Part shown: piece after piece, positions 3,176 through 57,735 of the stretch
Position numbering within the stretch: the stretch's first letter is position 1
How the letters are laid out: every line of letters begins with the position of its first letter
Assembly (NCBI GenBank): GCA_965220965.1
Contig: CBDCRI010000001.1
Span: forward strand, 192,001 to 256,000
Direction: 5' to 3'
DNA from: Candidatus Marinacidobacterium sp.
GTDB lineage: Bacteria; Acidobacteriota; Vicinamibacteria; Marinacidobacterales; Marinacidobacteraceae
DNA length: 64,000 nucleotides
Position numbers and translations under genes: made by a program
Notes under the pieces: generated by a model
Told to the model about the DNA's origin: nothing
The model's database searches: none
Seen by the model: only the letters and a program-made list of their open reading frames with translations

Positions 3176-3179
3176 ATGG

Positions 3180-8614: not shown

Positions 8615-8630
8615 GGCACGGCCCCCCGCC

Positions 8631-15341: not shown

Positions 15342-15450
15342 CCGCGGCCGTCCAGCGACACGCTGGGCCACTGACGCCGCCGCGGGGGCCGAAGCGGCGC
15401 TGCGCTCCTACAATGGTTCGGCGACGACCACTGCCGGAGGGCGGCCTTCG

Positions 15451-20457: not shown

Positions 20458-20708
20458 GCGATCTCCTCGGTGGGCCGCGCCGGCCGGCGCGGGAGCCACA
20501 AAAGATATGTCGGCCTTCGCGAAATGGCAAGGGCCGCGCCCCTGGTGGGCCGGCGCCGGGAATCCCGGCCTTTCCGCCGGCGCCTGAGCCTAGGGGCCGC
20601 CCCTTTGGCCGCCCCCTGCCATGCGGCGCGGGGCCGCGCTTGGCCGCGGCCGGGCGGGGGGGGGGCGGCGCCGTCAGGGGCGCCGCGTCGCCCCGCGGCG
20701 GGCGCCGG

Positions 20709-23417
20709 TCAGCCGCACTTGCTGTAGCCGCAGCCGCCGCAGACCTGGCAGCCCTCCTCGCGGCGCAGCTCGCCGCCGCATGCCGGGCACGCGCCGGGCA
20801 CCGGCGCCGCGGCGGGCCGGGCGGAGATCGGCTTGCCGAGCAGGTCCTCGGCGGCCCGCTCCAGGGCGTAGCCGACCTCGGAGATGATGGAGGGCACGTA
20901 GCGGTGCCCGCCGTCCACGGAGCGCCCCAGCGCCCCGCCGTCGGCGTCGCGCACCGACTTGAGGTCGCTGATCAGGTCGGCGATCTCGGCCAGGCCGTCG
21001 ATGCGCCGCAGCAGCGCCGACAGCGTCAGCGAGAACGAGGCCTGCCAGGCCGCGTGCTGGGTGTCCTTCGAGTTGATGAACACCTCGTGCAGGCGGTCGC
21101 CGAGCTTGCTCACGTGGACGTAGATCGGCATCGCGTCGGGCACGTTGACGTGCAGCCTGTAGGTCATCGACGGCAGCGCCAGCGGGCGGGTCTTCGCGGA
21201 CTGGGTGGCGCCCCGGCGGATCTCGTCGATCAGCTCGGGCAGCTCCGGCTCCGAGCGGGGCCGCGCCTCGACGGCCGCGGCGGCGTCGGCCTCCGCCGCC
21301 AGCTCCGGCGGCAGCGCGGGGGCGTCCGCGGCGGCCGGCGCCTGCGCGGGGCCCGCCACCGCCCACTCCACCAGCTCGCCCTCGATGCGCCCGGCGCCGT
21401 CCGGCCACGCGGCGCCCTCCGGCGCGGGCCGGGGGGCGTACTGGCCTTGGTTGAGCGCCTCGTGCAGCAGCGCCGCCCGCGTCGGCTCGCGCCGGTCGTG
21501 GGAGACCGACTCGCCGCCGCCGAACTCGCGCCAGGCGCCGTCGGCGGTGCGGAACCGGTAGCGGCGCCGCGCCATCTCGCCCTCGCGGGTGAGCACGCCG
21601 GCCCGCTGCGGGGTCGGCCGGTAGGTCGCGCAGCCCTTCAGGCCCTGCTCGTAGGCCAGCCGGTAGACGTCCTTGAACGCCTGGAACGGCATGTCCTCGG
21701 GCACGTTCACGGTCTTGGATATGCTGCTGTCGACAAAGCGCTGCACCGCCGCCTGCATCGCCACGTGCTCGGCCGGGGAGACGTCGTCGGCCGCCGTCCA
21801 GGCCGGCCCGCGCGGGAGCCCGTGGCGCTCCGCGTAGGCCTCCTCCAGCGAGCGCACGAGCACGGTGCGCTTGGCCTCCCCGGCGGCCACCAGGATGTTG
21901 CGCTCGGTCCGGTGCGCGAAGGTCGGCTCGATGCCGTTGGAGCAGTTGCCGGACACGAACGCCGTCGTGCCGGTCGGCGCCACCGTGGTCGCGTGCGACC
22001 AGCGCAGCCCGTGCTCGGCCGCGGCCGCCCGCCAGTCCCCGTCGAGCACGCCCTCGTCCACCAGGCGGCTGACGTAGGGCGAGGCGAGGTGCGCCTCGAG
22101 CACCGCCGGGTCCTCGAACACGGGCGCCCGGCCCTTCTCCCGGGCCAGCGCCACCGCCTCGCGCCAGGACTGCTCCGCCAGGACCGCCCCGACCCGCCTG
22201 GCGAAGGCCTGCGCGGGGTCCGACCCGTAGCGCAGGCCGAGCAGGTTGAGGGCGCTGCCGAGGCCCATGATGCCCATGCCGTGGCGGCGCTTGGCGCGCA
22301 GCTCCGCGTCCTGCTCGGGCAGCGGCAGCCGGGCGTCCTCCACCACGTTGTCGAGCATGCGCGAGAACGTCCGCGCCGCCCGGGCGAAGCCCTCCCAGTC
22401 GAACGCGGCGCCCTCCGTCAGGCCGTCCGTCACGTGGTCGGTGAGCCGGATGGCCCCCAGCAGGCAGGCGCCGTGCGGCGGCAGCGGCTGCTCCCCGCAC
22501 GGGTTGGTCGCCCAGATCTCCTCGACCGAGCGCAGCGGGTTCATGGCGTTGATGCGGTCGATGAACAGCACGCCGGGCTCGGCGCTGTCGTAGGTCAGGC
22601 GCATGATCCGGTCCCACAGGTCGCGCGCCGGCAGGCGCTTGTGGATGCGGCACAGGTAGCGCCCCTCGGCGTCGCGCTCGTACTCCGCGTCGGGCCCCGG
22701 CCGCTGCCAGCGCGCCCAAGCCGACTCGCCCTCGGGCGGGCGCGGCTCGCCGGCCCGGACCGGGTACATGAGGCGGTGCTCGCCGTCGGCGGCGACCGCC
22801 GCCATGAACTCGTCGCCCACCAGCACCGAGAGGTTGAAGTTGGTCAGCCGCCCGGCCCTGGCCTTGGCCTCGATGTAGTCCTCCACGTCCGGGTGGCGCA
22901 CGTCAAGCGTGCCCATCTGGGCGCCGCGGCGTCCGCCCGCCGAGCTGACGGTGGCGCAGGCGGCGTCGAAGGTGTCCATGAACGGCAGGACGCCGCCGGT
23001 GGCGGCGCCGACGCCGGCGACCAGGGCGCCGCGGGGGCGCAGGGTCGAGAAGCAGTAGCCGATGCCGCAGCCCTTGGCGAGCGTCTCCATGGCCTCGCCG
23101 ACCGCCCGCGCGATGCCCGCCATCGAGTCCTCCACCGTGCGCGACACCGTGCAGTTGATGGCCGAGGCGTTGCGCCCGTCGCGGCCCATGTTGGCCAGGA
23201 TGCGCCCGCCGGGCCGGGCGCCGCCCTCGAGCAGCGCCCACAGGAACTCGCGCTCCCTCGCCCGGCGGGCCTTGGCCGGGCCGCCGTCCAGCTTGGCCAG
23301 CGCCTTGGCGACGCGCTCCGCCACGTCCTCCCAGCACGCCTCCCCGGGCGCGCCGTACTTGTCCAGCAGGGTGTCGAGCATCGGGTCCGCAAGCGGTGCG
23401 GCGGCGGCGTTGAGCAT
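20709..23417 (-). CDS. nrdJ: class II (B12-dependent) ribonucleotide reductase with C-terminal Zn ribbon
   Basis: PGGRILAN, NCTV, GRRGAQM, EPGVLFID, ATNPCGEQPL, CLLG, APTGT, GIEP, SISKTVN, CPACG...CQVCGGCGYSKC. No nrdB nearby. Confidence 0.92.
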   Translation of the reverse strand: MLNAAAAPLADPMLDTLLDKYGAPGEACWEDVAERVAKALAKLDGGPAKARRAREREFLWALLEGGARPGGRILANMGRDGRNASAINCTVSRTVEDSMAGIARAVGEAMETLAKGCGIGYCFSTLRPRGALVAGVGAATGGVLPFMDTFDAACATVSSAGGRRGAQMGTLDVRHPDVEDYIEAKARAGRLTNFNLSVLVGDEFMAAVAADGEHRLMYPVRAGEPRPPEGESAWARWQRPGPDAEYERDAEGRYLCRIHKRLPARDLWDRIMRLTYDSAEPGVLFIDRINAMNPLRSVEEIWATNPCGEQPLPPHGACLLGAIRLTDHVTDGLTEGAAFDWEGFARAARTFSRMLDNVVEDARLPLPEQDAELRAKRRHGMGIMGLGSALNLLGLRYGSDPAQAFARRVGAVLAEQSWREAVALAREKGRAPVFEDPAVLEAHLASPYVSRLVDEGVLDGDWRAAAAEHGLRWSHATTVAPTGTTAFVSGNCSNGIEPTFAHRTERNILVAAGEAKRTVLVRSLEEAYAERHGLPRGPAWTAADDVSPAEHVAMQAAVQRFVDSSISKTVNVPEDMPFQAFKDVYRLAYEQGLKGCATYRPTPQRAGVLTREGEMARRRYRFRTADGAWREFGGGESVSHDRREPTRAALLHEALNQGQYAPRPAPEGAAWPDGAGRIEGELVEWAVAGPAQAPAAADAPALPPELAAEADAAAAVEARPRSEPELPELIDEIRRGATQSAKTRPLALPSMTYRLHVNVPDAMPIYVHVSKLGDRLHEVFINSKDTQHAAWQASFSLTLSALLRRIDGLAEIADLISDLKSVRDADGGALGRSVDGGHRYVPSIISEVGYALERAAEDLLGKPISARPAAAPVPGACPACGGELRREEGCQVCGGCGYSKCG

Positions 23418-23581: not shown

Positions 23582-24172
23582 ATGCCCACCACGCTCCTCC
23601 AGCCCCCGGAGGCGGCGCCCCTGGCCCTCAAGGCCCTCGGCGCCGCGCCGCCGGGGTTCGGCCCGCTCCCCGCCGAGCCGGTTCGCCGCAGCCCATGGGG
23701 GACGCCCGGCCAGCGGTTCGCGGTGCTGCGCCGCCAAGGCGGCGGGCTCGACGCCGCCATGCCGCGCTGGGGCCTGCTGCCCGCCTGGATGCCGCACGCC
23801 AGCGCCCGCCGGAAGCCCACCTGCGCGCGGGCGGGCAGCCTGCTCAGCCGCAAGGCCTTCCGGGAGGCGTTCCGGCGCCGGCGCTGCCTGGTCCCGGCCA
23901 CGGGCTGGGCGGCCGGCGGCCAAGGGCGGCGCGCGGCCGTGCCGGACGGGGTCGCCCTGCTGGCCGGCGTCTGGGAGCGCTGGACGCCGCCCGATCCCGC
24001 CAAGCCGCCGATCGACACGTTCGCCCTGGTCCTCGCGCCGCGCGGCGCGGGGCTTCCCGCCGCCATCCCGCCGGCCCGCGCGCCGGAGTGGCTGGCCCCG
24101 GACGGGCCGCCGGACGGCCTCATCGCCCTGCTGCGCGACGCCCGGCCATGCGCCCGCGCGCTCGCCGCATGA
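23582..24172 (+). CDS. SRAP (YedK/HMCES)-like protein lacking the N-terminal catalytic Cys
   Basis: PRWGLLPAW, FREAFRRRRCLVPATGW, LAGVWERW; no MCGR start. Confidence 0.75.
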   Translation: MPTTLLQPPEAAPLALKALGAAPPGFGPLPAEPVRRSPWGTPGQRFAVLRRQGGGLDAAMPRWGLLPAWMPHASARRKPTCARAGSLLSRKAFREAFRRRRCLVPATGWAAGGQGRRAAVPDGVALLAGVWERWTPPDPAKPPIDTFALVLAPRGAGLPAAIPPARAPEWLAPDGPPDGLIALLRDARPCARALAA

Positions 24173-34921: not shown

Positions 34922-35388
34922 CAGGGAACGGCAGGATCGACGGCATCCGCGTGCGCGTCACGCCGCGGCGCAGCTGGCGGCTGCAGCTCGTCAGGCTGTC
35001 GGGGGAGTGGCACGCCCTCGTGAAGGGCCGCAGCCAGGCTCCGGTCGAGGCCAAGGCCCGCACGGCCCAAGCCGCGCTGGAGCGCGCCTTGGGCGCCTGG
35101 GCCGACAGGCCCGAGGTGACGGCTGCCGCGCCAAGGTCGGCCGGAGCCTTGGCCTTCGAGTTGCCTGATGAGGACGGCGCCTGGCTCTGCCTGAGGCACC
35201 GGGGGATGGACGCCACGTGGTCCTGCGAGTTCGGCAGCGTGGCCCGCCGGCGAACCGTCACCGGGCACCGCTGCCCGGAGGACGCCATCGCCGCCGCGTC
35301 ACGGGCGTGGCCGGCGGCCATTGCGCCCCTGCGCCTCGGCGCCGGGCCGCCTCCCCCGCCAAGCCGGCCCGCGGCCGGCGGTCCCTGA
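34918..35388 (+). CDS. hypothetical protein
   Basis: ATGA coupling; ends PSRPAAGGP. Confidence 0.6.
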   Translation: MTGNGRIDGIRVRVTPRRSWRLQLVRLSGEWHALVKGRSQAPVEAKARTAQAALERALGAWADRPEVTAAAPRSAGALAFELPDEDGAWLCLRHRGMDATWSCEFGSVARRRTVTGHRCPEDAIAAASRAWPAAIAPLRLGAGPPPPPSRPAAGGP

Positions 35389-35407
35389 CGTCCCCGGGCG
35401 CCGCCCA

Positions 35408-36445
35408 ATGCCGGTCTCCATAGTCGTCGGCGGCCAGTTCGGCTCGGAGGGCAAGGGCAAGGTCGCCCACTGGCTCGCGGCCCGGCAGCAGGCGTGCCAC
35501 GCCGTTCGCGTCGGCGGCCCCAACTCGGGCCACACCGCGCTCTCCGAGGGCCGGCTGCGCGCGTTCCGCCAGCTCCCAACCTGCATCCTGCATGAGCCCG
35601 TGGTCGGCGTCATCCCCGCGGGGGCCTACGTGGACGAGGCGCTCCTGCTGTCGGAGGCGGAGGCCGCCGGCATCGACGAGTCCCGGCTGCTGATCCATCC
35701 CGATGCGGTCCTGCTCGACGAGTCCATGCGCGAGGAGGAGCGCCGGGCCGGCCTCGTCGAAGGGGTCGCCTCGACCGGACAGGGCGTCGGCGCGGCGCTC
35801 AGGCGGCGCGTCATGCGCATGCGCTCCGTCAGGTTCGCCCGCGACTCCGAGTCCTTGCGGCCATTCCTGCGGCCGGACCTGGGCGCGCGCCTGGCCGAGG
35901 CGCTCGACCGCGGCGGCCGCATCGTCATCGAGGGCACGCAGGGGTTCGGGCTGTCGCTGCTGCACGGCGGCCACTACCCGTTCGCCACCAGCCGCGACAC
36001 CACCGCCGCGGGCATGCTCTCGGAGGCCGGCCTCAGCCCCCGCGACGTGGACTGCGTGTCGCTGGTGATCCGCGCCCTCCCCATCCGCGTGCAGGGCAAC
36101 TCCGGCCCCCTCCCCCGCGAGACCTCCTGGGCCGAGGTGCGGCGCCGCAGCGGGGCGGGCGTCGACCTGGCCGAGACGACCACCGCCACCGGCCGGCGGC
36201 GGCGGGTGGCGCGCTTCGACCCCCGCGTCGTGCGCCGCGCCATCGCCGTCAACCGCCCGAGCCAGCTGGTGCTCAACCACGTGGACCTCATCGACTGCGC
36301 GGCGCACGGCAAGTCCCGCCTCACCGCGCGCGCGGGCGCCGCGGTGGCGGACATCGAAAGCTCGCTCGGCGCGAGGGTCGACTACGCGGGCACCGGCCCG
36401 GGCAGCCTCATCAGCCGCCCTGCGGGCGGCTGGGCCTGCGGCTAG
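35408..36445 (+). CDS. short adenylosuccinate-synthetase paralog, PurZ/PurZ0-like
   Basis: GGQFGSEGKGK, GGPNSGHT, STGQGVG, EGTQG, YPFATSRD, PIRVQGNSGPL, TTATGRRRRV, NHVD, GTGP; 345 aa. Confidence 0.88.
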   Translation: MPVSIVVGGQFGSEGKGKVAHWLAARQQACHAVRVGGPNSGHTALSEGRLRAFRQLPTCILHEPVVGVIPAGAYVDEALLLSEAEAAGIDESRLLIHPDAVLLDESMREEERRAGLVEGVASTGQGVGAALRRRVMRMRSVRFARDSESLRPFLRPDLGARLAEALDRGGRIVIEGTQGFGLSLLHGGHYPFATSRDTTAAGMLSEAGLSPRDVDCVSLVIRALPIRVQGNSGPLPRETSWAEVRRRSGAGVDLAETTTATGRRRRVARFDPRVVRRAIAVNRPSQLVLNHVDLIDCAAHGKSRLTARAGAAVADIESSLGARVDYAGTGPGSLISRPAGGWACG

Positions 36446-36533: not shown

Positions 36534-36971
36534 TCAGCCGCCGGCCCCGACCGGCGCCTCGAGCCAAGCCTTGAGCGCGGCCCACTGCCGCTCGTCGGCG
36601 AGCCTGCGGCGGACCAGCGCGTCGAAGAGGTCGGGAACGCACTGGCCGCGCAGGTGGCCGTCGAGCAGCCTGCGGCTGTCGCGGTCGTCGCCGAGGGCCG
36701 GGAGGTAGCCGGCCGCCGCGGCGCGGCGGGCGTCGTCGAGCCGCTCCGGCGCCTCCGCCAGCCAGCAGTCGAGGTCCTCGCAGGCCGCCAGGACGCGGTC
36801 CGCCTTGCGCCGGTAGGCGGCGAGGAAGGCGTTGGACGCCCGCGACACGCGCCGCCGCTCCGCCATGGGCAGCCCGCCCAGCGCGCCGTCGAGGGTCCGG
36901 TCGAGGGCGGCGAGCGCTATGAGCCTCGGATGGCGCAGGCGGTCCTGCAAGGGCGTGCTGGTCGGGGTCAA
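36534..36971 (-). CDS. hypothetical protein
   Basis: TTG start with GAGG RBS and upstream TGGCATAAT. Confidence 0.55.
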   Translation of the reverse strand: MTPTSTPLQDRLRHPRLIALAALDRTLDGALGGLPMAERRRVSRASNAFLAAYRRKADRVLAACEDLDCWLAEAPERLDDARRAAAAGYLPALGDDRDSRRLLDGHLRGQCVPDLFDALVRRRLADERQWAALKAWLEAPVGAGG

Positions 36972-37028: not shown

Positions 37029-37985
37029 TCACGGGCCCGGCGCGGCCGCCCCCCGGCCCGGCGAGGCCTTGGGCGAGGGATCCCACATGTGCCTGGCGGC
37101 GCCCATCCACTCCGCAACCGCGCACGCCTCGAAGGCGGCCGCCATGCTGGGCAGCCCCCGCCCGATCGCCTGCCGGCCGCCGACGTCCCGCTCCAGCCAG
37201 GCGTGCCAGCCGCCGTCGGCCTGGCCCACGCGGTAGAGGCCGTGCGCCCACAGACCGTCGCCGGCCGCCGCCCAGTGCCAGGCCCGGAGGGCGGCCGCCG
37301 GGTCGCCACGGTAGGTCCAGCGCAGGCCGCTCTCCATTGCCTGCGCCCGCCAGGCCGCGCCGAGCCGTCCGGCGCGGACCAGGTTCTCGAAGTGGGACGA
37401 GCGCAGCGTCCGCCGCAGCCGCAGGCTGCCGGCCTTGCCCGGCCAGCCGCGCTCGCTGAAGTAGCCGGCCGGCCCCTTGAGGGCGGCCAGCCCGACCGCG
37501 GCGTGCCACTGCGCCCGCGCCAGCGCCTTGGCCGCCTGGGGCCGGAAGGCGTGCTCGGAACCGTAGTGGGCGTCCATGCGGGCGGCGACCTCGTCGAGGC
37601 CCAGCGCGGAGAGCGCGCGCGGCCGGCCGGCCGCGCCGTGCCCCATCAGGTCCATGGCCGCGTCCATCAGGCGGCACAGCATGGCGGCCGACTCCTCCAG
37701 CCGCCGGAAGTCGTAGAGCGGGCGCTCGCCGGGGCGCTCGATGACGTGGCGGGACGCGTCCACGGCGCCCGCCATGTGCGGGGTGCCGGCGGGGTCGTCG
37801 CGGCGGCGGGGCGCGGCCCCGGAGCGAATCCCGGCCAGCGCCAGCGTTCGCGGGTCGAGCCGCCACTCGCCGCCGGCCAGGCCCTGGGCGAACCGGTCCG
37901 CCAGCCCGCGGCTGCGGGCGCCGCAGGCGGCGGCCTCGGCCCCGGCGAGGGCCGCGGCGGCCCGTTCGGCCTCGCGGGGACTCAC
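37029..37985 (-). CDS. class II RNR-scaffold-derived protein, no catalytic core
   Basis: Colinear matches to NrdJ blocks (see findings); paralog of 38758-39753; ends APGP. Confidence 0.75.
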   Translation of the reverse strand: MSPREAERAAAALAGAEAAACGARSRGLADRFAQGLAGGEWRLDPRTLALAGIRSGAAPRRRDDPAGTPHMAGAVDASRHVIERPGERPLYDFRRLEESAAMLCRLMDAAMDLMGHGAAGRPRALSALGLDEVAARMDAHYGSEHAFRPQAAKALARAQWHAAVGLAALKGPAGYFSERGWPGKAGSLRLRRTLRSSHFENLVRAGRLGAAWRAQAMESGLRWTYRGDPAAALRAWHWAAAGDGLWAHGLYRVGQADGGWHAWLERDVGGRQAIGRGLPSMAAAFEACAVAEWMGAARHMWDPSPKASPGRGAAAPGP

Positions 37986-38053
37986 GGACGGCCTCCCGCC
38001 GCCGCCCTGCCGTTGCGTCCCATTTCGGCGCCGCTGGCCGCTGCGTGCGAAGG

Positions 38054-38623
38054 CTAGGGGCCTGGCGGGGCGGACGGGGCGGCGCGCCCGCTCGCCGCCG
38101 CGCCGGCATCGGCCCCGGGGCCAGGCCGCAACTGGCGCTCCGCGCGGCAGCCCCCTTGCTTGAAATGGGCATCGTCCGGCTGGTGGATGTCCTCATCCGA
38201 GCTGGTGACGACGGCGGCCGCGCCCCCGGCGGTGTCGAGCACCACGACGACATCCCCCCAGGGCTGCTTGATGGCCTCGTGGAACGCGGCCAGGGCGTCG
38301 TCCTTGTCCCTGTGGGCGGACAGGAAGTCCCCGACCGTGGCCAGGTCGAAGTCCAGCGCGTAGAGGATGGTCTGGCTGATGACGCGGACCTGGTAGCGGT
38401 GGTAGCGGTCCGGAACGCCTTTCCAGAGCGTCCTGCCGTTGAAGCGGTCGAGAACGAGGATGGTGCAGTCGGGATGGGCGCGGACGCGGCGCTCGGCCTC
38501 CTCCAGGGCGGCGCGCCTGTCGTTGGTGAGGGACGGGGGGTCGAACAGGTCGATCCCGCCCTCGTCGACGGTGCGGATGGCGTATCGGGGCGCCAGTTTC
38601 TGGCGCGGGGCGTTGGCGTTCAT
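38054..38623 (-). CDS. hypothetical protein
   Basis: GAGGAG RBS, ATG 38623; ends APSAPPGP. Confidence 0.7.
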   Translation of the reverse strand: MNANAPRQKLAPRYAIRTVDEGGIDLFDPPSLTNDRRAALEEAERRVRAHPDCTILVLDRFNGRTLWKGVPDRYHRYQVRVISQTILYALDFDLATVGDFLSAHRDKDDALAAFHEAIKQPWGDVVVVLDTAGGAAAVVTSSDEDIHQPDDAHFKQGGCRAERQLRPGPGADAGAAASGRAAPSAPPGP

Positions 38624-38757
38624 GCTTTCTCCTCGGTTGAACTGGGCTTGCGCGGCGCTTCGCCGCACTCCCCCTCCCTGCCGCGCAGCGTCGCGGCCGC
38701 CCTGGCGGCGGCGCGGGCCAGCGGCCCGCGCCCCGATGGCCCCGCCGGCACCGGCCG

Positions 38758-39753
38758 CTAGGGGCTTGGGGAGGCGGACCGAACCGGGCGCCCGGCCGCC
38801 GCAGGCGAGGCGGGCGCGGGGGCGCGGTCGACGCTGAAGTGGTGCTCCAGCCGGCAGCCCCAAGCGTGCTCCGCGCACGCCGCGTAGGCCTCGCCGCGGC
38901 TGTCGTTGGCAAGGCCGACCGACCAGCGGTAGTCGGAGAGGTCGGACTTGCGCGAGGCGTGCCACCGCCCGTCCTCCAGCCAGACGCGGTAGGCGCCGTG
39001 CGCCCAGGCCGCCTCGCCGACCCGGGACCACTCCCAGTACCAGGGGGCGGGCGCCGGGTCGCCGAAGTGCGTCCAGCGCAGCCCGTGGGCGGCGGCGCGC
39101 CGCCGCCAGCGCTCGTCGAGCTCTCCGAACTTGATGGCGGTGGCGATGCGCTTCGAGTGCAGGGTGCGCATGAGGGCGTTGCGGTCGCGCGCGAAGTAGG
39201 GGGCGGGTCCCTTGGCGCGGGCCAGCGCCACCGACGCGTTCCATTGCCCGCGCGCCAAGGCCCGCAGGATTCCGAAGTCGAGCCGGTTCGTCCGTTCCAG
39301 CGGCAGGCCCGACTCGAGGGGGAGGCTGTCGATCTGGCGCAGCTCGCGGCGGCAGCCCGCAGCGGCCGCGCCCACCATGGCCATGGCCGCGTCCATCAGC
39401 CGGCTCAGCATGGCGGCGGACTCCTCCAGGCCGCGGAAGTCGTAGCGCTCGCTCGCCGCGAAGCCGGGGACGGCGTGGCGGCCGAGGTCCACCCGGCCCA
39501 CCATCGGGTCGGCCCCCTCCGGCTCGCGTCCGGTGCGCGCCGGCACGAGGCCCTGCCCGAGCCCGACCGCGGCCCGGGTCGCCACGTCAAGCCCCCATTC
39601 GCCGCTCAGCAGGCCTTCTGCGAAGCGGCCGGCAAGCCGCCTGCGCCCAAAGGGGCCGTTCAGGCCGTCGGCCTCGGCGAGCGCCAGCGCTGCGCTCCGC
39701 ACGACGCGCTCCTCCGGCATTTCGGCCCTCATTGTCTCCGCGTTCGCTCCCAT
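38758..39753 (-). CDS. class II RNR-scaffold-derived protein, no catalytic core
   Basis: YDFRGLEESAAMLSRLMDAAM, SVALARAKGPAPYF, WRRRAAAHGLRWTH; AAGGAG RBS; ends SASPSP. Confidence 0.75.
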   Translation of the reverse strand: MGANAETMRAEMPEERVVRSAALALAEADGLNGPFGRRRLAGRFAEGLLSGEWGLDVATRAAVGLGQGLVPARTGREPEGADPMVGRVDLGRHAVPGFAASERYDFRGLEESAAMLSRLMDAAMAMVGAAAAGCRRELRQIDSLPLESGLPLERTNRLDFGILRALARGQWNASVALARAKGPAPYFARDRNALMRTLHSKRIATAIKFGELDERWRRRAAAHGLRWTHFGDPAPAPWYWEWSRVGEAAWAHGAYRVWLEDGRWHASRKSDLSDYRWSVGLANDSRGEAYAACAEHAWGCRLEHHFSVDRAPAPASPAAAGRPVRSASPSP

Positions 39754-39883
39754 GCCTGCTCCTTGACCGCTTCGGGGGTGTGCACGCCATTAAAGCGGCC
39801 CGCGCCCGAATGGCCCCCGGGCGCGCGGCCCAAGGCCGCCGCGAATCCTAGAATGGGCTTGGCAAACCGACGGCGGGGAGGCC

Positions 39884-45810: not shown

Positions 45811-47064
45811 CTAGGCGTCCCGGCCCGCCGCCGGCCCCGGAGCGTCGATCAGGACGCTCGCCGGGCGCATGGGCACGGGCGGTGGGGAGTGGCGCAGCTG
45901 CAGGCGGTCGCCGGCGATCTCGACGTCGAACCCGGAGTGCACGCGGGCGATGGCGGTGAGGTCCGAGGCCAGCCGGTGCTTGAACATCCGCAACCCGGCC
46001 ACGTCCGGGGCGAAGATCGGGTGCAGCGCGGACAGCCTGATGGGCAACGGGCGCCCCTTCGGCACCCGGGGCAGGCGGTAGGACAGCCACGAGTACAGGT
46101 CCATGCGGCGCGGGCTGCGGGTCAGCTTGCGCAGGTGCGCGAGGTCCACGGGCACGGGATGCTCGGAAACGGCTTCGTAGAAGCGCTCGGACAGGCGAAC
46201 GCCGACCTCAACCGGGCCGTCGTCCGCGCCGAGGCCTTGGCCCCACCAGGACAGCCTGTCCGCCACCGCAAGCAGGGCGAAGCTCTGCTCCACACGGCCC
46301 TCCTGCCCGAGGGCGAACCGGAAGCTCGCCGTGGCGACGTTCTCGGTCTCCCGCGCCAAGGTCCGGGCGTTGTGCGCGGTGTAGGTGACCCCGACGAAGT
46401 TCCGCACGTAGTCGTGCACGGTGCGTCCGAGCGGCACCTCCCTGGTCCGTTTCATCAGCGCGTGCCGCGTGATGGTCGGCAGGATCAGGCGGGCCATCGA
46501 GCCGGACGGCACGGCGCAGTCACGGGCGGGCCTGCCGGCCGAGGCGGGCAGCGTGCCCGCCACCACGTCCAGCCGCGCGAGGCCGTGGTTTGCCGACCAG
46601 AGGCGCTGACCGGCGGGCAGCTGGCGCTGGGGCAGGAAGCACTGCATGAGGATGCCGTGGGTGAAGCCTATGTCGCGCCCGAGCAGCGCCTCGTCCGCCT
46701 CCCGGACCGCGGCGGCGTCCCGCTGGTCCGGCGCCGGCACGCGCGCGGAGGCCCGCCTTCTGGCCTCGGCCAGCAGATCGTGCCGGGCGTCGGCGGGGAA
46801 CGCCCGCCTGGCCTGGTCCTCGTGGTCGTTGGTGACCCGATCCGTGTCCCCGGCCTTCAGGAGCGCGTGGAACAGCCGGCCCGGCGTGCCGAGGGAGTCG
46901 TCGGCCAGCGCCTTCATCGCGAGGGCCAGGAAGTCCAGGACGGCCTTCTCGCCCACGTCCCAGAAGCCTCGGCGGACCGCCTCAAGGTAGAGCGCGCCGA
47001 GGCGCTGGGGATCAGTCAGGTCGCCACGCTCGATGTGGCCAAGGTCGACGCCCGGCCGCGTCAT
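45811..47064 (-). CDS. repA: plasmid replication initiator (RepA_C-type) with N-terminal extension
   Basis: IGFTHGILMQCFLP, VPSGSMARLIL, LSERFYE..EHPVPVD, SPRRMDLYSWLSYRL, F..RL; adjacent to iterons. Confidence 0.85.
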   Translation of the reverse strand: MTRPGVDLGHIERGDLTDPQRLGALYLEAVRRGFWDVGEKAVLDFLALAMKALADDSLGTPGRLFHALLKAGDTDRVTNDHEDQARRAFPADARHDLLAEARRRASARVPAPDQRDAAAVREADEALLGRDIGFTHGILMQCFLPQRQLPAGQRLWSANHGLARLDVVAGTLPASAGRPARDCAVPSGSMARLILPTITRHALMKRTREVPLGRTVHDYVRNFVGVTYTAHNARTLARETENVATASFRFALGQEGRVEQSFALLAVADRLSWWGQGLGADDGPVEVGVRLSERFYEAVSEHPVPVDLAHLRKLTRSPRRMDLYSWLSYRLPRVPKGRPLPIRLSALHPIFAPDVAGLRMFKHRLASDLTAIARVHSGFDVEIAGDRLQLRHSPPPVPMRPASVLIDAPGPAAGRDA

Positions 47065-47790: not shown

Positions 47791-49398
47791 ATGCCGGAAC
47801 TGATTCGGGCCGAAGAGGCGAAGGCCATCATCCTGAAGGGCGAGGCGAAAGGCTCCCTGAACGTCAAGGGCGACCTGCGCTTCGGCCCGCAGGACGGCTT
47901 GGAGGACCACATGCTGCCCCCGGGCCTGCGAGTCGACGGCGAGCTGGGCCTGGACGGCTGCGACATCACCCATGGGCTGCCCTCCTGCGAGGTTTCCGCG
48001 CTGTCGATCTCCATCAGGGCCTGCGCGGGGATCAAGGAGGTCTCCAGCTGGCGGGCGGCCACGCACGCGCTGATCGCGGACTGCCCGGCGCTGACCGCGA
48101 TCAGGGGCGTGACCGTGGCCGAGGGCGCGCTGCGCGTGGAGCGGTGCCATTCACTGCGCACGCTGAGCTTCGGCGCGCTGGAGCGCCTGCACGTCGAGGG
48201 CTGCGCCAGCCTGGAGAGCGAGGGGCTCCAGGGCGGCTGGGCGGACGCGGCCTCGCTGGTCGACCTGCCCCGGCTCAAGTCCGCCGCCATCCTCCACAGG
48301 ACCGGCCACCTGGAGCTGGTCTCCTGCCACGCGCTCGCCAGCCTGGGGAGCGAGGGGATCACCCGAGGCGAAACCGTCCGCGTGACGGACTGCGCGCGCT
48401 TCGAGCGCCTGGCCCAGCCCAAGGAATCCCCTTGCCTGCTCACCGGCGACCTGCTGGTGGCGGACTGCCCGAGGTTCCAGGGGATCGACCCGGGCGCGAC
48501 AGTCAACGGCGACGTGCGGATAACGCGCTGCGCGGACTTCGCCCAGAAGCACTTCCAGTTCACCGTGGGCGGCGACCTCGTCCTGCGCGAGTGCCCGGAG
48601 CGGGGCCGGGCGGTCGAGGAGTTCCGGGTCGGCGGCTCGGCCTACAGAAGCGACGGCCCGCAGGAGACCGCGGTCATTGACTCCTACAGCCCCCTGCGGT
48701 CGTGGGTGGGGGCCACGCACGACCCCGAGAGGAACGAATGGCGGGAGGACGCCTCGGCCGGCATCGACCCGCACTGCGAGGTGGCGCTGGACGGCTGCCT
48801 GGTGACCGGGCCGGGCGAGATGCCGCCGCACCTCGCCGCAACCTTGGAGCATGCGGCGCAAGTGGCGGTTTCCGGCACCGCCTTTCGCCTGCCGCCGCTG
48901 TTCGCCTGCCGTCCGGAGGACGCCTGGCGGCTCAGGCACATCCCCGCCCTGGTCGCCGTGGAGCCGCTTTGCATGGATGCGGAGAGCGGCGAGTGGCGTC
49001 CGCTGGCGGGCGACCCCGGGGTGCGCAAGGCCCCCTGCGCCGTGCGCCTGACGACCAAGGGCGGCAACGCGTCGCTGCGGCGGCGCACGGTGCGCGTGCC
49101 GGCACTGCTCGGCAACGACCGCGGCCTAGGGCTCGAGGCGGCGCCGATCGCCGTCGACCCGGACCACCCGGCTGCCCCGGCTGCATCGCGGGCCCTTGAG
49201 GCGCTGAGCGACGCCCTGTCCAAGGCCTACTTCCGTCCGCAGGCGCTCAGCGCTGCGGACAAGGAGAGCGGCCGACGGGCCAAAGAGGTAGACGCGTTCC
49301 GAGAGCGCGCCGTGGGCTTCGCCAAGGGGGCGCTGGACAAGGCCGGGGAGTCGCCCGCCCCAAAGCCGAAGGCCAAGCGGCCCTCGCCCTCCCCCTGA
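47791..49398 (+). CDS. protein with Cys-containing leucine-rich repeats
   Basis: IADCPALTAI, VERCHSLRTL, VEGCASLES, LVSCHALASL, VADCPRF; AAGGAGG RBS; ends KAKRPSPSP. Confidence 0.8.
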   Translation: MPELIRAEEAKAIILKGEAKGSLNVKGDLRFGPQDGLEDHMLPPGLRVDGELGLDGCDITHGLPSCEVSALSISIRACAGIKEVSSWRAATHALIADCPALTAIRGVTVAEGALRVERCHSLRTLSFGALERLHVEGCASLESEGLQGGWADAASLVDLPRLKSAAILHRTGHLELVSCHALASLGSEGITRGETVRVTDCARFERLAQPKESPCLLTGDLLVADCPRFQGIDPGATVNGDVRITRCADFAQKHFQFTVGGDLVLRECPERGRAVEEFRVGGSAYRSDGPQETAVIDSYSPLRSWVGATHDPERNEWREDASAGIDPHCEVALDGCLVTGPGEMPPHLAATLEHAAQVAVSGTAFRLPPLFACRPEDAWRLRHIPALVAVEPLCMDAESGEWRPLAGDPGVRKAPCAVRLTTKGGNASLRRRTVRVPALLGNDRGLGLEAAPIAVDPDHPAAPAASRALEALSDALSKAYFRPQALSAADKESGRRAKEVDAFRERAVGFAKGALDKAGESPAPKPKAKRPSPSP

Positions 49399-50297: not shown

Positions 50298-50804
50298 CTA
50301 GGGCGCGGGGGCCGAGTGCGGCCTGAGCCGCGAACCGTCGAAGCGCGCCCACACCGAGATCACCCCGCCCGCCTCGGGGCGGACCTCCAGCCGGTCGGCC
50401 TTTGGGTGGTCGCACGCCGGCTTGAGAAGCTCAAGGGGCAGCGCGTGCGCGAAGTCGTCGCCCCCGAGAAGCGCGTGCGCTGCGTCGTACCAGTCGTCCT
50501 CGTTCGGGTCGAACCCCTCGGCGTACACGACGAGCCTGGCGTCGGGGTCACCCGGGCGCGCCGGGTCGGGCTGGTGCGGAATGCCGGAGGACATGAGGTA
50601 CACCCCGCGGTCCATGACCAGGTGAAGGGCCGGCGGCGCCCTGCCCTCCAGCTCGCGCAGCTCCGACTCCGAGGGCCAGCGGAACTCGGTCTCGCCAAGC
50701 AGGTCAAGCGCCTGCTCCAGCGTCACCCAATGCCGTCCGGCGCCCCTGGCGTGGTCGTAGAGCCGCAGGACGTCATCCATGTCAAAGCTGAGCGCATCGG
50801 CCAT
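50298..50804 (-). CDS. DUF3085-like protein
   Basis: LVMDRGVYLMS, VVYAEGFDP, WYD, GGDDF; GAGGAGG RBS. Confidence 0.8.
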   Translation of the reverse strand: MADALSFDMDDVLRLYDHARGAGRHWVTLEQALDLLGETEFRWPSESELRELEGRAPPALHLVMDRGVYLMSSGIPHQPDPARPGDPDARLVVYAEGFDPNEDDWYDAAHALLGGDDFAHALPLELLKPACDHPKADRLEVRPEAGGVISVWARFDGSRLRPHSAPAP

Positions 50805-50882: not shown

Positions 50883-51386
50883 TCAAGGGGCCGCGCCGGG
50901 CCTTCGCGTCGGGCGCCGCGCGTAGCCCAGCTCCAGCTCGCCGTCGGACACGGTGATGACGATCCGCTCCGCGTCCGGGTCGGCCAGGGCCGGCCCGAAA
51001 AGGTCCAGCGGCAGGGCGTGCGCGAAGTCGTCGCCGCCCAGAATCCGGCGCGCGCCGTCGTACCAGTCGTCGAAGGCCTCCACGTTGGGGTCGAACCCCT
51101 GGGCGTAGACCACGCGGCTGGCGTCGGGGTCCCCCTGCCGCGCCGGGTCGGGCAGGTGCGGAATGCCGGAGGACATGAGGTAGACCCCGTCGTCCTTCAC
51201 GAACTGCAGGGCGGGCGGCGCGAGGCGCTGCGCCTTGCGCATCTCCGCGTCGCTGGGCCGGCGGCCGTCCGGCAGCCCCAGCAGGTCAAGCGCCTGCTCC
51301 AGCGTCACCCTGTGCCGCTTGGCCGTCCTCGCGTGCTCGCACAGCGCCGCGACGCCCGCCAGGTCGAAGTCCATCGAGTCCGGCAC
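50883..51386 (-). CDS. DUF3085-like protein, tandem paralog
   Basis: FVKDDGVYLMSSGIPH, VVYAQGFDP, GGDDFAHALPL. Confidence 0.8.
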   Translation of the reverse strand: MPDSMDFDLAGVAALCEHARTAKRHRVTLEQALDLLGLPDGRRPSDAEMRKAQRLAPPALQFVKDDGVYLMSSGIPHLPDPARQGDPDASRVVYAQGFDPNVEAFDDWYDGARRILGGDDFAHALPLDLFGPALADPDAERIVITVSDGELELGYARRPTRRPGAAP

Positions 51387-51440
51387 CTTCCCTCCCTTGC
51401 CCCGCCAAGGCGTCCGCAACGCGTCCCGTCCGGCCCGCGC

Positions 51441-53054
51441 CTAGGGGCGCGCCCGCCGGCGGGGACGGCTGCGGCGCCCCTCGACGCCGCGCACCACGAT
51501 GCGCCCGGCCAGTGGGTCCACCTGCGCCACGCGCGCCCTGACCCGGTCGCCCAGGCCGATGACGCGCCTGCCGCTGCCCTCCGCGAAGATCTCGTGCGGG
51601 CGCTTGACGCCGCGCTCGCTCCACGCGCCGCCCCCGAGGTCCCTGACGTGCGCCAGGCCCTCCACGCCCCAGCCGTCGAAGGCCACGAAGGCGCCGAAGT
51701 CCGCCACGCCCGAGACCGTGCAGGCCAGGCGCTCGGAGCGCCAGGGGGCGTGCACGGCGAACCAGCCGCACAGGGCGACGCGCTCGGCGTCGCGCGCGGC
51801 CCGGTCGATGAGGGCGCCGCGCTCGTTGAGGCGCTCGCAAAGGCCGGCGGGCAGCCGGCCGGGGCGGCCGCCGCGCAGCACGGCCTTCATCCCGCGGTGG
51901 ACCAGCAGGTCGGCGGTCCGGCGGATGGGCGAGGTGAAGTGCGCGTACAGCGGCACCGCCAGGGCGAAGTGCCCCGCCTCGGCGTCCTCGCCGTAGCCGG
52001 CCCTGGGCATGCCGCGCTTGACGGCAAGGTCGCACAGCCAGCCGGCCGCCCCGGCGGACCGGGCGGCGTCGCGCCGGGCGGACAGGTAGGCGGCCGGGTC
52101 GGCCAGCGCCGCCGGCCCGCCCGGCCCGCCGCCGGCCTTGGGCGCCAGCGCGCCGAGCATGGCGCAGGCCCGCTCCAGGTCCTCCTCGCCCGGGGCCGGG
52201 TGGCTCCGGTGGGGCGCCGGGATCCGGTGCTCGCGCAGGAACTCGGCCGCGCAGCGGTTGGCGGCGATCATGGCCTCCTCGATGACCGAGTGCGCCTTCA
52301 GCGGCGCCTCCGGGGCCATCCCGGACATGGCGCCGTCGGCGTCAACCAGCACCTCGGTGCCGCACGGCGCGAAGGCCAGCGCGCCGCGGCGGCGGCGCTC
52401 GCCGAGGAGCGCCTCGTGGACCGCCGCCAGCGCCTCCAGGGAGGCGTCCAGGCCGGCGTCGCCGGCGCTCCCCGCGGCCCCGCCGAGCAGGGCGTCGGCC
52501 TCCTCGTAGGTCAGCCGGCGCCGCGAGCGGATCACCGCCTCCTGGAACCCGTGCGCCTCGACCTCGCCGCCGGCGGACACCCGCATCGAGCAGACGACGG
52601 CCAGCCGGTCCTCGCCCGGGCGCAGCGAGCAGGCGCCGTTGGACAGCGCCTCCGGCAGCATGGGGACGGTCAGCCCCGGCAGGTAGGCGCTCTCGCAGCG
52701 CAGCTGCGCCTCCCGGTCGAGCGCTGAGCCGCGCCGGACGTACTCGGCCACGTCGGCCACCGCCACGCGCAGCTTGAAGGCGCCGCCCTTCAGCCGCTGG
52801 GCGGCGACGGCGTCGTCGAAGTCCTTGGCGTCGGCGCCGTCCATGGTGCAGAAGGGCACGCCGCGCAGGTCCGTCCGGCCCGCGCCGGGGCGGACCGCCA
52901 CCGTGCGCGCCAGGCGCCGCGCCTCCTCGGCGGCGGCCTTGGGGAACGCGCGGCTGAGGCCGTCGCGCTTGGCGAGGGCCTCGGAAATGCGCCGGGCGGG
53001 GACCGCCTGCGCCGCCTCGGGAGCCCGCTCGGCCGCGGCGGCGGCCACGCTCAC
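51441..53054 (-). CDS. RNase R/RNase II-family exoribonuclease (RNB plus S1, no N-terminal CSDs)
   Basis: TMDGADAKDFDDA, VADVA, PMLPEALS, IEEAMIAAN, HFTSPIRRTADLLVHR, S1 FGAFV..EGLAHV. Confidence 0.9.
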   Translation of the reverse strand: MSVAAAAAERAPEAAQAVPARRISEALAKRDGLSRAFPKAAAEEARRLARTVAVRPGAGRTDLRGVPFCTMDGADAKDFDDAVAAQRLKGGAFKLRVAVADVAEYVRRGSALDREAQLRCESAYLPGLTVPMLPEALSNGACSLRPGEDRLAVVCSMRVSAGGEVEAHGFQEAVIRSRRRLTYEEADALLGGAAGSAGDAGLDASLEALAAVHEALLGERRRRGALAFAPCGTEVLVDADGAMSGMAPEAPLKAHSVIEEAMIAANRCAAEFLREHRIPAPHRSHPAPGEEDLERACAMLGALAPKAGGGPGGPAALADPAAYLSARRDAARSAGAAGWLCDLAVKRGMPRAGYGEDAEAGHFALAVPLYAHFTSPIRRTADLLVHRGMKAVLRGGRPGRLPAGLCERLNERGALIDRAARDAERVALCGWFAVHAPWRSERLACTVSGVADFGAFVAFDGWGVEGLAHVRDLGGGAWSERGVKRPHEIFAEGSGRRVIGLGDRVRARVAQVDPLAGRIVVRGVEGRRSRPRRRARP

Positions 53055-53347
53055 GGCCCCCCCAACGGCGCGGGGGCGCGCCCGGCCGACGGCGGGCGGG
53101 GCCGCGCGCCGGGCCTCGGGAAGCGCTCCGCGTAGCGCAGGGCGCTCTCGATCGCCTCCCGCGGCAGCTCCGGGAAGTCGTCCATGAGGTCCTCCACGGT
53201 CTCGCCGCCCAGCAGGCGGGCCTGGACGTCGTAGACGGTGGCGTTGGTGCCGGCGAGCGTGGGGGCCCGGCCCTCGGCGGCGGACGGGACGGCGAGGAAC
53301 CGCCAAGGCCCGGCGCCCGGGTCGGGCTTCGAATTCGGTTGCTTCAT
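53051..53347 (-). CDS. DUF433-family protein
   Basis: G..PTLAGT..TVYDV..L.GGET.EDL..DFPEL..EAIESALRYA. Confidence 0.8.
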   Translation of the reverse strand: MKQPNSKPDPGAGPWRFLAVPSAAEGRAPTLAGTNATVYDVQARLLGGETVEDLMDDFPELPREAIESALRYAERFPRPGARPRPPSAGRAPAPLGGP

Positions 53348-53465
53348 GGTGTCTCCTGAATGCGCGCGCCGGCAAGACGGATCGGCCCGGGCCGGCGCCC
53401 CCGGGATGCGGGCATTCTAGCAACGCCCCGCCAAGGGGCGCTTCGCGGCCGCGTTCGGGCCGGGC

Positions 53466-54478: not shown

Positions 54479-54614
54479 GGGGTTCGCTCCTGGCATGCTG
54501 CCGGGATTAAATCATTCGTCAGGCGACTCGGCCCCCGGGCGGCGTGGGCCAGGCCCGGAGGCGGCTGCCGTTCCTATAATCGCGCACCGCCCCCGCAGCC
54601 CCTGGAGGCCCGCG

Positions 54615-57455: not shown

Positions 57456-57735
57456 CCCCGCCCCCTCGCCCCGTCCCCGGTGGTCCCAGGCCGCCTAGGA
57501 CCGCCCTTCCGAGGCAACGCAAGGCCGCGAGCGCAGCGTCCGGAGCGAGGCGCACCGAAGCCCGCCACGCCCAGGCGGTCACCGAACGCCTGGCCCAGGA
57601 CGTCTGCGCAGAGCGTCCGGAGGCGCTCGTCCGCCTTCGTCCGGCGACTCGGCCCCCGGGCGGCATGGGCCAGGCCCGGTGGCGGCAGCCGTTCCTATAA
57701 TCGCGCACCGCCACCGCTGCCCAAGGAGGCCCGCG

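What the first reader, a model, noticed from the sequence alone, without database searches (positions are those of the whole stretch)
37029..39753. Two mini-proteins carved from class II ribonucleotide reductase
Both align colinearly with this window's NrdJ: ERVAKALA vs ERAAAALA; FLWALLEGGARPGGRILANMG vs FAQGLAGGEWRLDPRTLALAG; GAIRLTDHV vs GRVDLGRHA; FDWEGFARAARTFSRMLDNVV vs YDFRGLEESAAMLSRLMDAAM; RYGSDPA vs HYGSEHA; SWREAVALAREKGRAPVF vs QWNASVALARAKGPAPYF; LDGDWRAAAAEHGLRWSH vs LDERWRRRAAAHGLRWTH. The segment from NCTV through NPCGE (catalytic cysteines) and everything from APTGT onward is deleted, replaced by a new Trp-rich domain (W.W...G...WAHG.YRV....G.WHA) and a PxP tail. Two diverged copies sharing the same deletions imply selection. 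Inference: an RNR mimic, inhibitor or nucleotide-binding decoy, notably next to the PurZ-like gene.
Basis: partly seen in the sequence, partly recalled or inferred. Interest (0 to 1): 0.8.

Follow-up and report, generated by a model that had tools for sequence, protein, structure and literature searches.

The report
Two truncated, non-catalytic ribonucleotide reductase relics
Two neighbouring genes encode small proteins whose middle part descends from a vitamin-B12-dependent ribonucleotide reductase but lacks every catalytic part, a rare case of an essential enzyme being cut down into a new protein found in no other genome searched.

Summary
Window 37029-37985(-) (318 aa, mini1) and 38758-39753(-) (331 aa, mini2) are paralogs (41% identity, E 2e-45). 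About 155 residues of each are truly homologous to the stretch of class II RNR (NrdJ) between the NPCGE finger loop and the APTGT loop (hhalign 98.8%, E 7e-17; BLASTP down to 1.6e-19). The first half-barrel, finger loop, both redox cysteines and everything after APTGT are missing.

The claimed N-terminal match is only marginal. The Trp-rich C-terminal domain is conserved between the two copies and matches nothing known.

In a tree the pair sits beside a second, foreign NrdJ of the same 363-kb replicon, on a very long branch. Codon-position patterns, Trp retention and ribosome-binding sites argue for translated genes under weak purifying selection. No full-length relative was found in any collection searched.

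They cannot be reductases. An "RNR mimic or inhibitor" role is untested, and the canonical dimer and nucleotide sites lie in the deleted parts. The function is open.

The parts
38758..39753 (-). mini2 gene, 331 aa (P0002), ATG start
   Evidence: ORF and translation; codon-position GC 0.75/0.59/0.93
37029..37985 (-). mini1 gene, 318 aa (P0001), GTG start
   Evidence: ORF and translation; codon-position GC 0.80/0.64/0.96; 41% identical to mini2, E 2e-45
39046..39522 (-). mini2 residues 78-236: NrdJ-derived segment (betaF to just before the APTGT loop)
   Evidence: BLASTP 1e-11 / 7e-13 / 1.6e-19 against NrdJ1 / NrdJ2 / P0131; hhalign 98.8%, E 6.9e-17
37302..37790 (-). mini1 residues about 66-228: NrdJ-derived segment
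   Evidence: BLASTP 1e-09 / 3.7e-11 / 1.1e-14 against NrdJ1 / NrdJ2 / P0131
38839..39045 (-). mini2 residues 237-305: Trp-rich beta-sheet plus helix domain
   Evidence: AF2 of this domain alone gives pLDDT 74, pTM 0.67, four strands and one helix; motif W.W...G...WAHG.YRV....G.WHA shared with mini1; no significant fold or sequence match
37086..37301 (-). mini1 residues 229-300: Trp-rich domain
   Evidence: Alignment A3, 40% identity; own-genome search E 4.1e-8
39523..39753 (-). mini2 residues 1-77: N-terminal helical region, possibly from the NrdJ N-terminus (about 27-78 of NrdJ2)
   Evidence: Marginal only: 13/2000 and 64/2000 shuffles reach the score in the restricted test; hhalign E 0.059 at the colinear place; no hit to the NrdJs in the own-genome search
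37791..37985 (-). mini1 residues 1-65: N-terminal region
   Evidence: Restricted tests 42/2000, 174/2000 and 34/2000
39759..39764 (-). AAGGAG Shine-Dalgarno-like hexamer, 5 nt before the mini2 ATG
   Evidence: Upstream sequence printed
37992..37997 (-). GGGAGG Shine-Dalgarno-like hexamer, 6 nt before the mini1 GTG
   Evidence: Upstream sequence printed
38054..38623 (-). Intervening orphan gene, 189 aa, ATG at 38623 preceded by GAGGAG; same strand, probably the same operon
   Evidence: Sequence; no Pfam/PHROG/NCBIfam/PADLOC family
36534..36971 (-). Downstream orphan gene, 145 aa, same strand
   Evidence: Codon-position GC 0.81/0.56/0.97; no family
38720..38743 (+). 24-nt direct repeat, copy 1, just past the mini2 stop
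39794..39817 (+). 24-nt direct repeat, copy 2 (2 mismatches), 41-64 nt upstream of the mini2 start
   Evidence: 2 matches in the window; shuffles give a mean of 0.03
20709..23417 (-). NrdJ1, full-length class II RNR of the window (902 aa, P0006); comparator, not part of the minis
   Evidence: PF02867 2e-113; NPCGE, NCTV and APTGT present

Best explanation
The two genes encode non-catalytic proteins born from a partial copy of a horizontally acquired class II RNR (NrdJ) carried on the same 363-kb replicon.

Shown:
- One ancestral event removed the first half-barrel, the finger loop and everything from the APTGT loop onward.
- The remnant gained or kept a short N-terminal helical piece and carries a Trp-rich beta-sheet/helix domain of unknown origin.
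- It then duplicated in tandem.
- What stayed conserved is not the barrel strands but three helices that follow betaF, betaG and the next insert, together with the Trp-rich domain.
- Neither protein can reduce nucleotides.

Inferred: they are translated and kept by weak purifying selection. They work by binding rather than catalysis. The RNR remnant acts as a helical scaffold, and the strongly conserved helix (YDFRxLEESAAMLxRLMDAAM) and the Trp-rich domain act as contact surfaces for a protein or nucleic-acid partner of this mobile-element-like region. The partner is unknown and need not be an RNR.
For: Homology of the middle segment.

Loss of catalytic parts:
- No NCT/NPC/APTG motifs.
- The betaF redox Cys is replaced by Pro (mini2) or His (mini1).
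- Of 52 columns at least 90% conserved in 30 NrdJ rows, only 18 (mini2), 20 (mini1) and 13 (both) are kept.
- Pfam and NCBIfam scores are far below the cut-offs: 11.1 and 9.7 bits against 23.9, and 15.3 against 399.95.

Origin:
- In the tree the minis are sister to NrdJ2 (99/77) inside the NrdJ1+NrdJ2 clade (99/90), on a stem of 7.46 changes per column.
- The host-type chromosomal NrdJ is not hit by mini2.
- In 29 of 30 relatives the best NrdJ match is mostly only 25-30% identical to NrdJ2.

Shifted constraint, identities per 20 alignment columns, minis against the NrdJ1/NrdJ2 pair:
- betaG blocks: 4/20 and 2/20, against 11 and 16.
- Helix blocks: 14/20, 10/20 and 9/20.

Selection and translation:
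- GC by codon position matches real genes.
- Excess identity 0.39/0.41/0.25 at codon positions 1/2/3 (NrdJ pair 0.50/0.53/0.26); bootstrap difference 0.146, 95% CI 0.039-0.253.
- 9 of 12 Trp conserved.
- AAGGAG and GGGAGG lie 5-6 nt before the starts.

The C-terminal domain folds with moderate confidence (pLDDT 74).
Against: - The naive NG86 estimate gives pN 0.414 against pS 0.416, a ratio near 1. Only the composition-corrected measure shows constraint.
- No expression data: no RNA run is listed, and the runs laid were contigs only.
- No relative exists elsewhere, so conservation rests on two sequences.
- Long open frames are common by chance at 76% GC: 102 ORFs of at least 250 aa in 64 kb.
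- The full-length AF2 model is poor (pLDDT 40.7), so neither 'helical scaffold' nor any binding surface is shown.
- A basic pI (9.7-10.5) is common among neighbouring genes: 13 of 34 are above 9.
Confidence: 0.45

Rival explanations
1. RNR-directed modulator. The minis bind the replicon's NrdJ enzymes, the host NrdJ, or a factor that normally docks on the outer helices of the second half-barrel (for example the enzyme's own C-terminal reducing domains). In this way they tune or block deoxyribonucleotide supply.
For: - They derive from the replicon's own NrdJ clade.
- They lie 13.6 kb from NrdJ1 and about 37 kb from NrdJ2, beside phage-type nucleotide-metabolism genes: PurA/PurZ-like, DUF3310 and a metallophosphoesterase.
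- The retained helices are surface elements in RNR (recalled structure knowledge).
- The minis are basic and the NrdJs acidic, pI 9.7-10.5 against 5.6-5.8.
- Inactive RNR homologues with new binding roles exist in betaherpesviruses (search listing and abstract starts of PMC5469499 and PMC11772975).
Against: - There is no direct evidence.
- The canonical dimer interface and the specificity site (alphaA/alphaB, loop 1; PMC9669993 passages) belong to the deleted first half-barrel, so heterodimer poisoning by the usual interface is not possible.
- The barrel-strand motifs are no longer conserved.
Confidence: 0.2
2. Decaying relics. A partial NrdJ duplicate fused to junk was then tandemly duplicated on a replicon that duplicates genes constantly. 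The frames stay open only because stops are rare at 76% GC, and there is no function.
For: - NG86 pN/pS is near 1.
- The branches are very long: 7.46, 1.58 and 3.02.
- The replicon is full of tandem paralog arrays.
- Long chance ORFs abound.
- The proteins are orphans.
- The full-length AF2 confidence is low.
Against: - GC at the second codon position is still 0.60-0.64, like real genes, although about 40% of first and second positions have changed.
- Positions 1 and 2 are more conserved than position 3.
- 9 of 12 single-codon Trp are kept.
- Identity is blocky, 14 of 15 in one helix.
- Both genes keep Shine-Dalgarno-like sites.
- The alignment of the two copies has few gaps, all in frame.
Confidence: 0.15
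3. Small-molecule decoy. The remnant still binds a nucleotide effector, a substrate or adenosylcobalamin and sequesters it.
For: Only the ancestry from a nucleotide- and B12-binding enzyme, and the neighbourhood of nucleotide-metabolism genes.
Against: - The substrate-phosphate loop (APTGT), the finger loop, the Cys pair and the effector site are deleted or replaced.
- Only 13 of 52 conserved NrdJ columns survive in both copies.
- Which residues bind cobalamin was not checked, because no open paper giving them was read.
Confidence: 0.05

Closest known systems
Class II (adenosylcobalamin-dependent) ribonucleotide reductase NrdJ, dimeric type with a long C-terminus; specifically NrdJ2 of the same replicon (P0004), P0131 and NrdJ1 (P0006)
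   Same: About 155 residues (betaF to just before the APTGT loop) are homologous and colinear, 29-34% identical by BLASTP. The N-terminal helices may be homologous too, but only marginally.
   Different: The minis are about one third of the length. They lack the first half-barrel, the finger loop NPCGE, both redox cysteines, the APTGT loop, the last barrel strands, the IscU-like/TSCPD domain and the zinc finger. They are basic instead of acidic and carry an unrelated Trp-rich domain.
Betaherpesvirus inactive RNR large-subunit homologues (HCMV UL45, MCMV M45, HHV-6B RNR)
   Same: An RNR large subunit lost its enzyme activity and was kept by a mobile genome for a binding role (search listing and abstract starts of PMC5469499 and PMC11772975).
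   Different: Those proteins keep a full-length R1-like body (recalled), are class I derived and eukaryote-virus encoded, and have known host targets. Here two thirds of the enzyme are gone and no partner is known.
Split or interrupted NrdJ genes (NrdJa/NrdJb; intein- or intron-interrupted NrdJ)
   Same: Database NrdJ pieces begin at or near the same place as the minis' homology. P0013 and P0041 start 'MEQPLPP', and P0008-P0010 and P0079 carry inteins at NPC|GEQ.
   Different: Those pieces run on through APTGT to the end of the barrel and together rebuild a whole enzyme. 109 of the 120 short hits examined keep APTG[ST]. The two minis carry the same segment and cannot complement one another.
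dsRBD-like beta-beta-beta-alpha domains
   Same: The C-terminal domain model superposes on dsRBDs: best 7zpj_D, Z 6.8, rmsd 2.1 over 63 residues, and most of the top 26 rows are dsRBDs.
   Different: Z is below 8, which the tool itself says is common background. Foldseek finds nothing at E <= 0.001. The first helix of a dsRBD is missing, and there is no sequence signal.

Membership tests
Class II RNR NrdJ (PF02867 barrel / TIGR02504) | Whole-protein score above the curated family cut-off | tested here: not met
   PF02867 scores 11.1 and 9.7 bits against a cut-off of 23.9. TIGR02504 scores 15.3 bits against 399.95 for mini2 and gives no hit for mini1.
Class II RNR NrdJ | Detectable homology to the catalytic barrel | tested here: met
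   hhalign 98.8%, E 6.9e-17 over 153 columns; BLASTP 1.6e-19 against P0131.
Class II RNR NrdJ | Finger loop NPCxE carrying the thiyl-radical cysteine | tested here: not met
   No NPC in either protein. The alignment starts after the loop. The motif definition comes from PMC9669993 section 2.5 (passage read).
Class II RNR NrdJ | Redox cysteine pair on betaA and betaF | tested here: not met
   The betaA region (NCTV) is absent. The betaF Cys (C323 of NrdJ2) aligns to Pro in mini2 and His in mini1. The pair is described in PMC9669993.
Class II RNR NrdJ | APTG(T/S) loop and the remaining barrel strands up to betaJ | tested here: not met
   No APTG. Homology ends at ...GLRWTH.
Class II RNR NrdJ | Ten-stranded alpha/beta barrel fold | tested here: inconclusive
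   The full-length AF2 model has pLDDT 40.7, so the fold is not readable. By sequence only about 155 of about 510 barrel positions are present.
Split NrdJ (NrdJa/NrdJb or intein/intron pieces) | The pieces together contain all RNR motifs | tested here: not met
   Both minis hold the same segment and lack all catalytic motifs.
dsRBD | alpha-beta-beta-beta-alpha fold with a clear structural match | tested here: inconclusive
   Best Z 6.8, and none of 48,161 chains reaches Z >= 8. Foldseek's best E is 0.45.
Viral inactive RNR homologues (UL45/M45 type) | Full-length R1-like protein with catalytic residues lost | tested here: not met
   The minis are 318 and 331 aa and keep only one segment. The resemblance is functional (pseudoenzyme), not membership.

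The most novel reading that the evidence does not exclude
The minis found a new kind of RNR-derived regulator. In this reading a cut-down NrdJ keeps only the outer helices of the second half-barrel, is fused to a new Trp-rich domain, and docks on class II RNRs (or on their C-terminal reducing domains). This would let a mobile replicon with a possible modified-purine pathway control the cell's deoxyribonucleotide supply.
Probability: 0.12. Interest if true: 0.75.

Novelty: new variant of a known kind. Interest (0 to 1): 0.4.

Why it matters
RNR is the only de novo route to DNA precursors, and its barrel is one of the most conserved enzyme cores.

Here a fragment of that core, without any catalytic part, has been kept as two separate small genes. 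Its pattern of conservation has moved from the barrel strands to the surface helices. This is a clean natural example of how a pseudoenzyme or a new protein can arise by internal deletion and tandem duplication on a fast-evolving replicon.

If the proteins act on RNR they would be the first prokaryotic RNR-derived regulators.

The limits are plain. There is one genome, two sequences, no expression data and no partner.

Tried and rejected
Searches for relatives
- No full-length relative was found in any of these:
  - the word-indexed search of 5.8e9 proteins (self only among 8000 scored candidates);
  - the profile search of 1.84e9 representatives (8 hits: the 2 minis and 6 RNRs);
  - 60 related genomes (0 of 60, completeness 66-100%);
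  - phage tblastn;
  - plasmid megablast and tblastn;
  - pattern scans of genome and metagenome contigs;
  - an exact degenerate scan for the Trp motif in genome contigs (0 hits).
- Short proteins carrying the NrdJ segment: 320 hits, of which the best 120 were examined by script and 8 read. All are ordinary NrdJ pieces. One (P0123) lacks APTG but has a long unaligned tail, and three (P0038, P0087, P0104) have unaligned N-termini; none of these four was inspected further.

Structure
- PDB by sequence with the minis' profile: 0 hits.
- Fold search with the poor full-length model gave only generic helical matches, best Z 7.7.
- ESM Atlas for the C-terminal domain: best score 0.83, below the lead threshold.

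Possible NrdJ ancestry of the two ends
- The idea that the Trp-rich domain descends from the NrdJ post-barrel hairpin was not supported. hhalign gives E 0.26. In the restricted shuffle tests only 1 of 6 comparisons was low (25/2000); the others were 311-1909 of 2000.

Neighbourhood and context
- Paralogy of the two flanking orphan genes: E 0.018, not convincing.
- Relatives of the middle gene by pattern scan: none.
- PADLOC: no defence family for the minis or their neighbours.
- Rfam and tRNA scans of the window: nothing.
- Promoter and terminator scan: 0 promoter-like sites, 1 terminator-like site on the opposite strand.

Expression
- No RNA holder is listed. Three runs were laid as contigs. 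One is probably the source sample, and two hold a few identical 151-nt pieces at depth about 2.

Tools not available
The queue was full and the tool was then declared unavailable, so binding to NrdJ is untested.
Full report
What is there

On the minus strand of a 76% G+C window lie two ORFs. They are 38758-39753 (mini2, 331 aa, ATG) and 37029-37985 (mini1, 318 aa, GTG). A 189-aa orphan gene (38054-38623) separates them and a 145-aa orphan gene (36534-36971) follows, all on the same strand with gaps of 57-134 nt.

At this G+C content long open frames are common by chance: there are 102 ORFs of at least 250 aa in 64 kb. Openness alone therefore means little. Both frames do show the codon-position G+C of real genes here, 0.80/0.64/0.96 and 0.75/0.59/0.93. 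The overlapping alternative frames do not. AAGGAG and GGGAGG sit 5-6 nt before the two starts. The two proteins are paralogs, with 122/295 identical residues and E 2e-45.

The RNR relationship

The window's NrdJ (20709-23417, -, 902 aa) matches PF02867 at 2e-113. Both minis align to it colinearly over about 170 residues, with BLASTP E-values of 1e-11 and 1e-09. A second NrdJ of the same replicon lies just outside the window (C2:268178-270763, P0004) and matches better, at 7e-13. A third member of that small clade, P0131, matches best, at 1.6e-19 and 1.1e-14.

Profile-profile comparison gives 98.8% probability and E 6.9e-17 for mini2 83-236 against NrdJ 371-535. Smith-Waterman against shuffles gives z 19-27, with 0 of 200 shuffles reaching the score. 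Family models see almost nothing: PF02867 E 0.15 and 0.39, phrog_84 E 0.31, TIGR02504 E 0.0055. This shows how far the segment has diverged.

The segment starts just after the NPCGE finger loop and ends just before APTGT. The alignment of NrdJ2 to the T. maritima enzyme (1xje) puts the two cysteines around the start of the segment at chain positions 322 and 333. These agree with the catalytic and redox cysteines as I recall them. The betaA/betaF cysteine pair and the NPCxE motif are described in PMC9669993 (passages and section 2.4 read).

In the minis the betaF cysteine is Pro or His. NCT, NPC and APTG are absent. Of 52 columns at least 90% conserved in 30 NrdJ rows, mini2 keeps 18, mini1 keeps 20, and both keep 13. 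They cannot be reductases.

The two ends

An own-genome search with the N-terminus does not hit the NrdJs. Five of those six best alignments share one register, about residues 27-80 of NrdJ. I call this suggestive, not shown.

The C-terminal block (W.W...G...WAHG.YRV....G.WHA) is conserved between the copies. Folded alone it gives pLDDT 74 and pTM 0.67, with four strands and a helix. It has no significant match:
- Foldseek's best E is 0.45.
- VIA-align's best Z is 6.8, to dsRBDs, with none of 48,161 chains reaching Z 8.
- The Atlas score is 0.83.

A weak, colinear similarity to the NrdJ post-barrel hairpin (hhalign E 0.26) did not survive the restricted tests.

Origin

The genome holds three NrdJs: one chromosomal (NPCSE type) and two on the 363-kb contig C2. 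In 29 of 30 relatives the best match to NrdJ2 is mostly only 25-30% identical (one of these genomes, G036, is flagged unpublished). The C2 enzymes are therefore foreign to the host lineage.

I built a maximum-likelihood tree of the segment with 33 rows:
- 30 NrdJ rows, made of 25 of the 120 short hits, chosen by hand, plus P0004, P0006, P0007, P0009 and P0010;
- the two minis;
- the chromosomal NrdJ.

P0131 is not included because it was found later. In the tree the minis group together (100/99). They are sister to NrdJ2 (99/77) inside the NrdJ1+NrdJ2 clade (99/90), on a stem of 7.46 changes per column. The bootstrap had not fully settled, and mini1 has deviant composition. Sitting next to a zero-length branch is the opposite of long-branch attraction.

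The N-terminal boundary of the homology lies a few residues after a known break point of NrdJ genes. Inteins sit at NPC|GEQ in P0008-P0010 and P0079, and the called ORFs P0013 and P0041 start 'MEQPLPP'. This is a possible, untested route to the fragment. A 24-nt direct repeat brackets mini2. Contig C2 is full of tandem paralog arrays.

Are they maintained?

Naive NG86 gives pN 0.414 and pS 0.416. With G+C at the third position near 95%, that position can only toggle G/C, so I compared identity in excess of the compositional expectation. It is 0.39/0.41/0.25 for codon positions 1/2/3 in the minis, against 0.50/0.53/0.26 for NrdJ1 versus NrdJ2. The bootstrap difference is 0.146, with 95% CI 0.039-0.253 and 0.3% of replicates at or below 0.

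Trp is the best-kept residue, 9 of 12 in each copy, against 42% identity overall. Identity is blocky. It reaches 14 of 15 in EESAAML.RLMDAAM, and the helix blocks score 14, 10 and 9 of 20. The betaG blocks, which are the best conserved in true NrdJs (11 and 16 of 20), drop to 4 and 2 of 20 between the minis.

This points to translated proteins under weak purifying selection whose constraints have moved from the barrel core to the former surface helices and the new domain. No RNA data could be found.

Uniqueness

No full-length relative appeared in any search. None of the 120 short NrdJ-segment proteins examined has this architecture.

How it may work

The following is shown: the ancestry, the loss of catalysis, the duplication and the shifted conservation. 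The following is inferred: a binding role, with the RNR remnant as scaffold. From RNR knowledge, the dimer interface and the effector site lie in the deleted half, which argues against classical subunit poisoning or nucleotide sequestration.

A role on NrdJ remains possible. The genes sit among phage-type nucleotide-metabolism genes (a PurA/PurZ-like gene, DUF3310 and a metallophosphoesterase). The minis are basic while the NrdJs are acidic, although basic proteins are common here. The complex prediction meant to test this never ran.

The nearest conceptual precedent is the inactive RNR homologues of betaherpesviruses (listing and abstract starts only). My two literature searches for RNR pseudoenzymes or inactive homologues in phages returned nothing relevant in their listings (one hit, PMC10820379, was opened). 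Supplements were not consulted.

Verdict

This is a real, well-delimited and unusual feature: a pair of RNR-derived pseudoenzyme genes unique to one replicon. The functional inference is open and in part disfavoured.

Noticed in passing
G000 contig C2, 339-363 kb and 0-8 kb; window 47791-49398 (+): There is an array of about 25 tandem paralogs (about 100-490 aa, 33-79% identical). It runs across both contig ends, so the replicon may be circular. A distant member lies in the window. The two members tested have no Pfam family.
   Followed up: partly
window 54177-55928, 56145-57455, 57679-59076 (+): Three tandem paralogs, 70-77% identical. The first has no Pfam, PHROG, NCBIfam or PADLOC family; the other two have no Pfam or PHROG family.
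   Followed up: partly
window 50301-50804 and 50886-51419 (-): A tandem pair of DUF3085 proteins, 57% identical, next to an RNB-domain exoribonuclease (51441-53423).
   Followed up: no
window 35321-36445 (+): A short adenylosuccinate-synthetase-like gene. It hits phrog_1211 (PurZ) at 1.5e-67, but it is below the curated cut-offs of both NCBIfam PurZ (210.7 against 300 bits) and short PurA PRK04293 (257.5 against 368). Whether it makes 2-aminoadenine precursors is open. No DatZ or MazZ partner was looked for.
   Followed up: partly
window 38720-38743 and 39794-39817: A 24-nt direct repeat (2 mismatches) brackets mini2, with a spacing of 1074 nt. These are the only two matches in the window. It could be a cassette scar or a shared operator.
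   Followed up: partly
G000:C2:268178-270763 (-), 12 kb beyond the window end; window 20709-23417 (-): The replicon carries two foreign class II RNRs (48-55% identical to each other, depending on the alignment) in addition to the chromosomal NrdJ (C1:1581851-1584649). Their only close relative found is P0131 (53% identical), on a 29.6-kb contig.
   Followed up: partly
window 16570-20499 (-): A 1309-aa acidic protein directly downstream of NrdJ1, with no Pfam, PHROG, NCBIfam or PADLOC family.
   Followed up: no
window 1-16000 and 23582-24169: A cluster of DNA-end and ssDNA-processing genes: an exonuclease I-like gene (5315-6913), RecJ (12821-14614), SRAP (23582-24169), N6 methylases (1378-3177, 61653-63968) and a PAPS-reductase-like gene (7706-8614). 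Plasmid RepA_C lies at 45811-47064. No phage structural gene was seen in the window.
   Followed up: no
window 38423-38595: In run X2 a 503-nt contig of another organism matches part of the middle orphan gene with 29 differing letters and 2 gaps over 173 nt. The middle gene may therefore have relatives, even though the pattern scans found none.
   Followed up: partly
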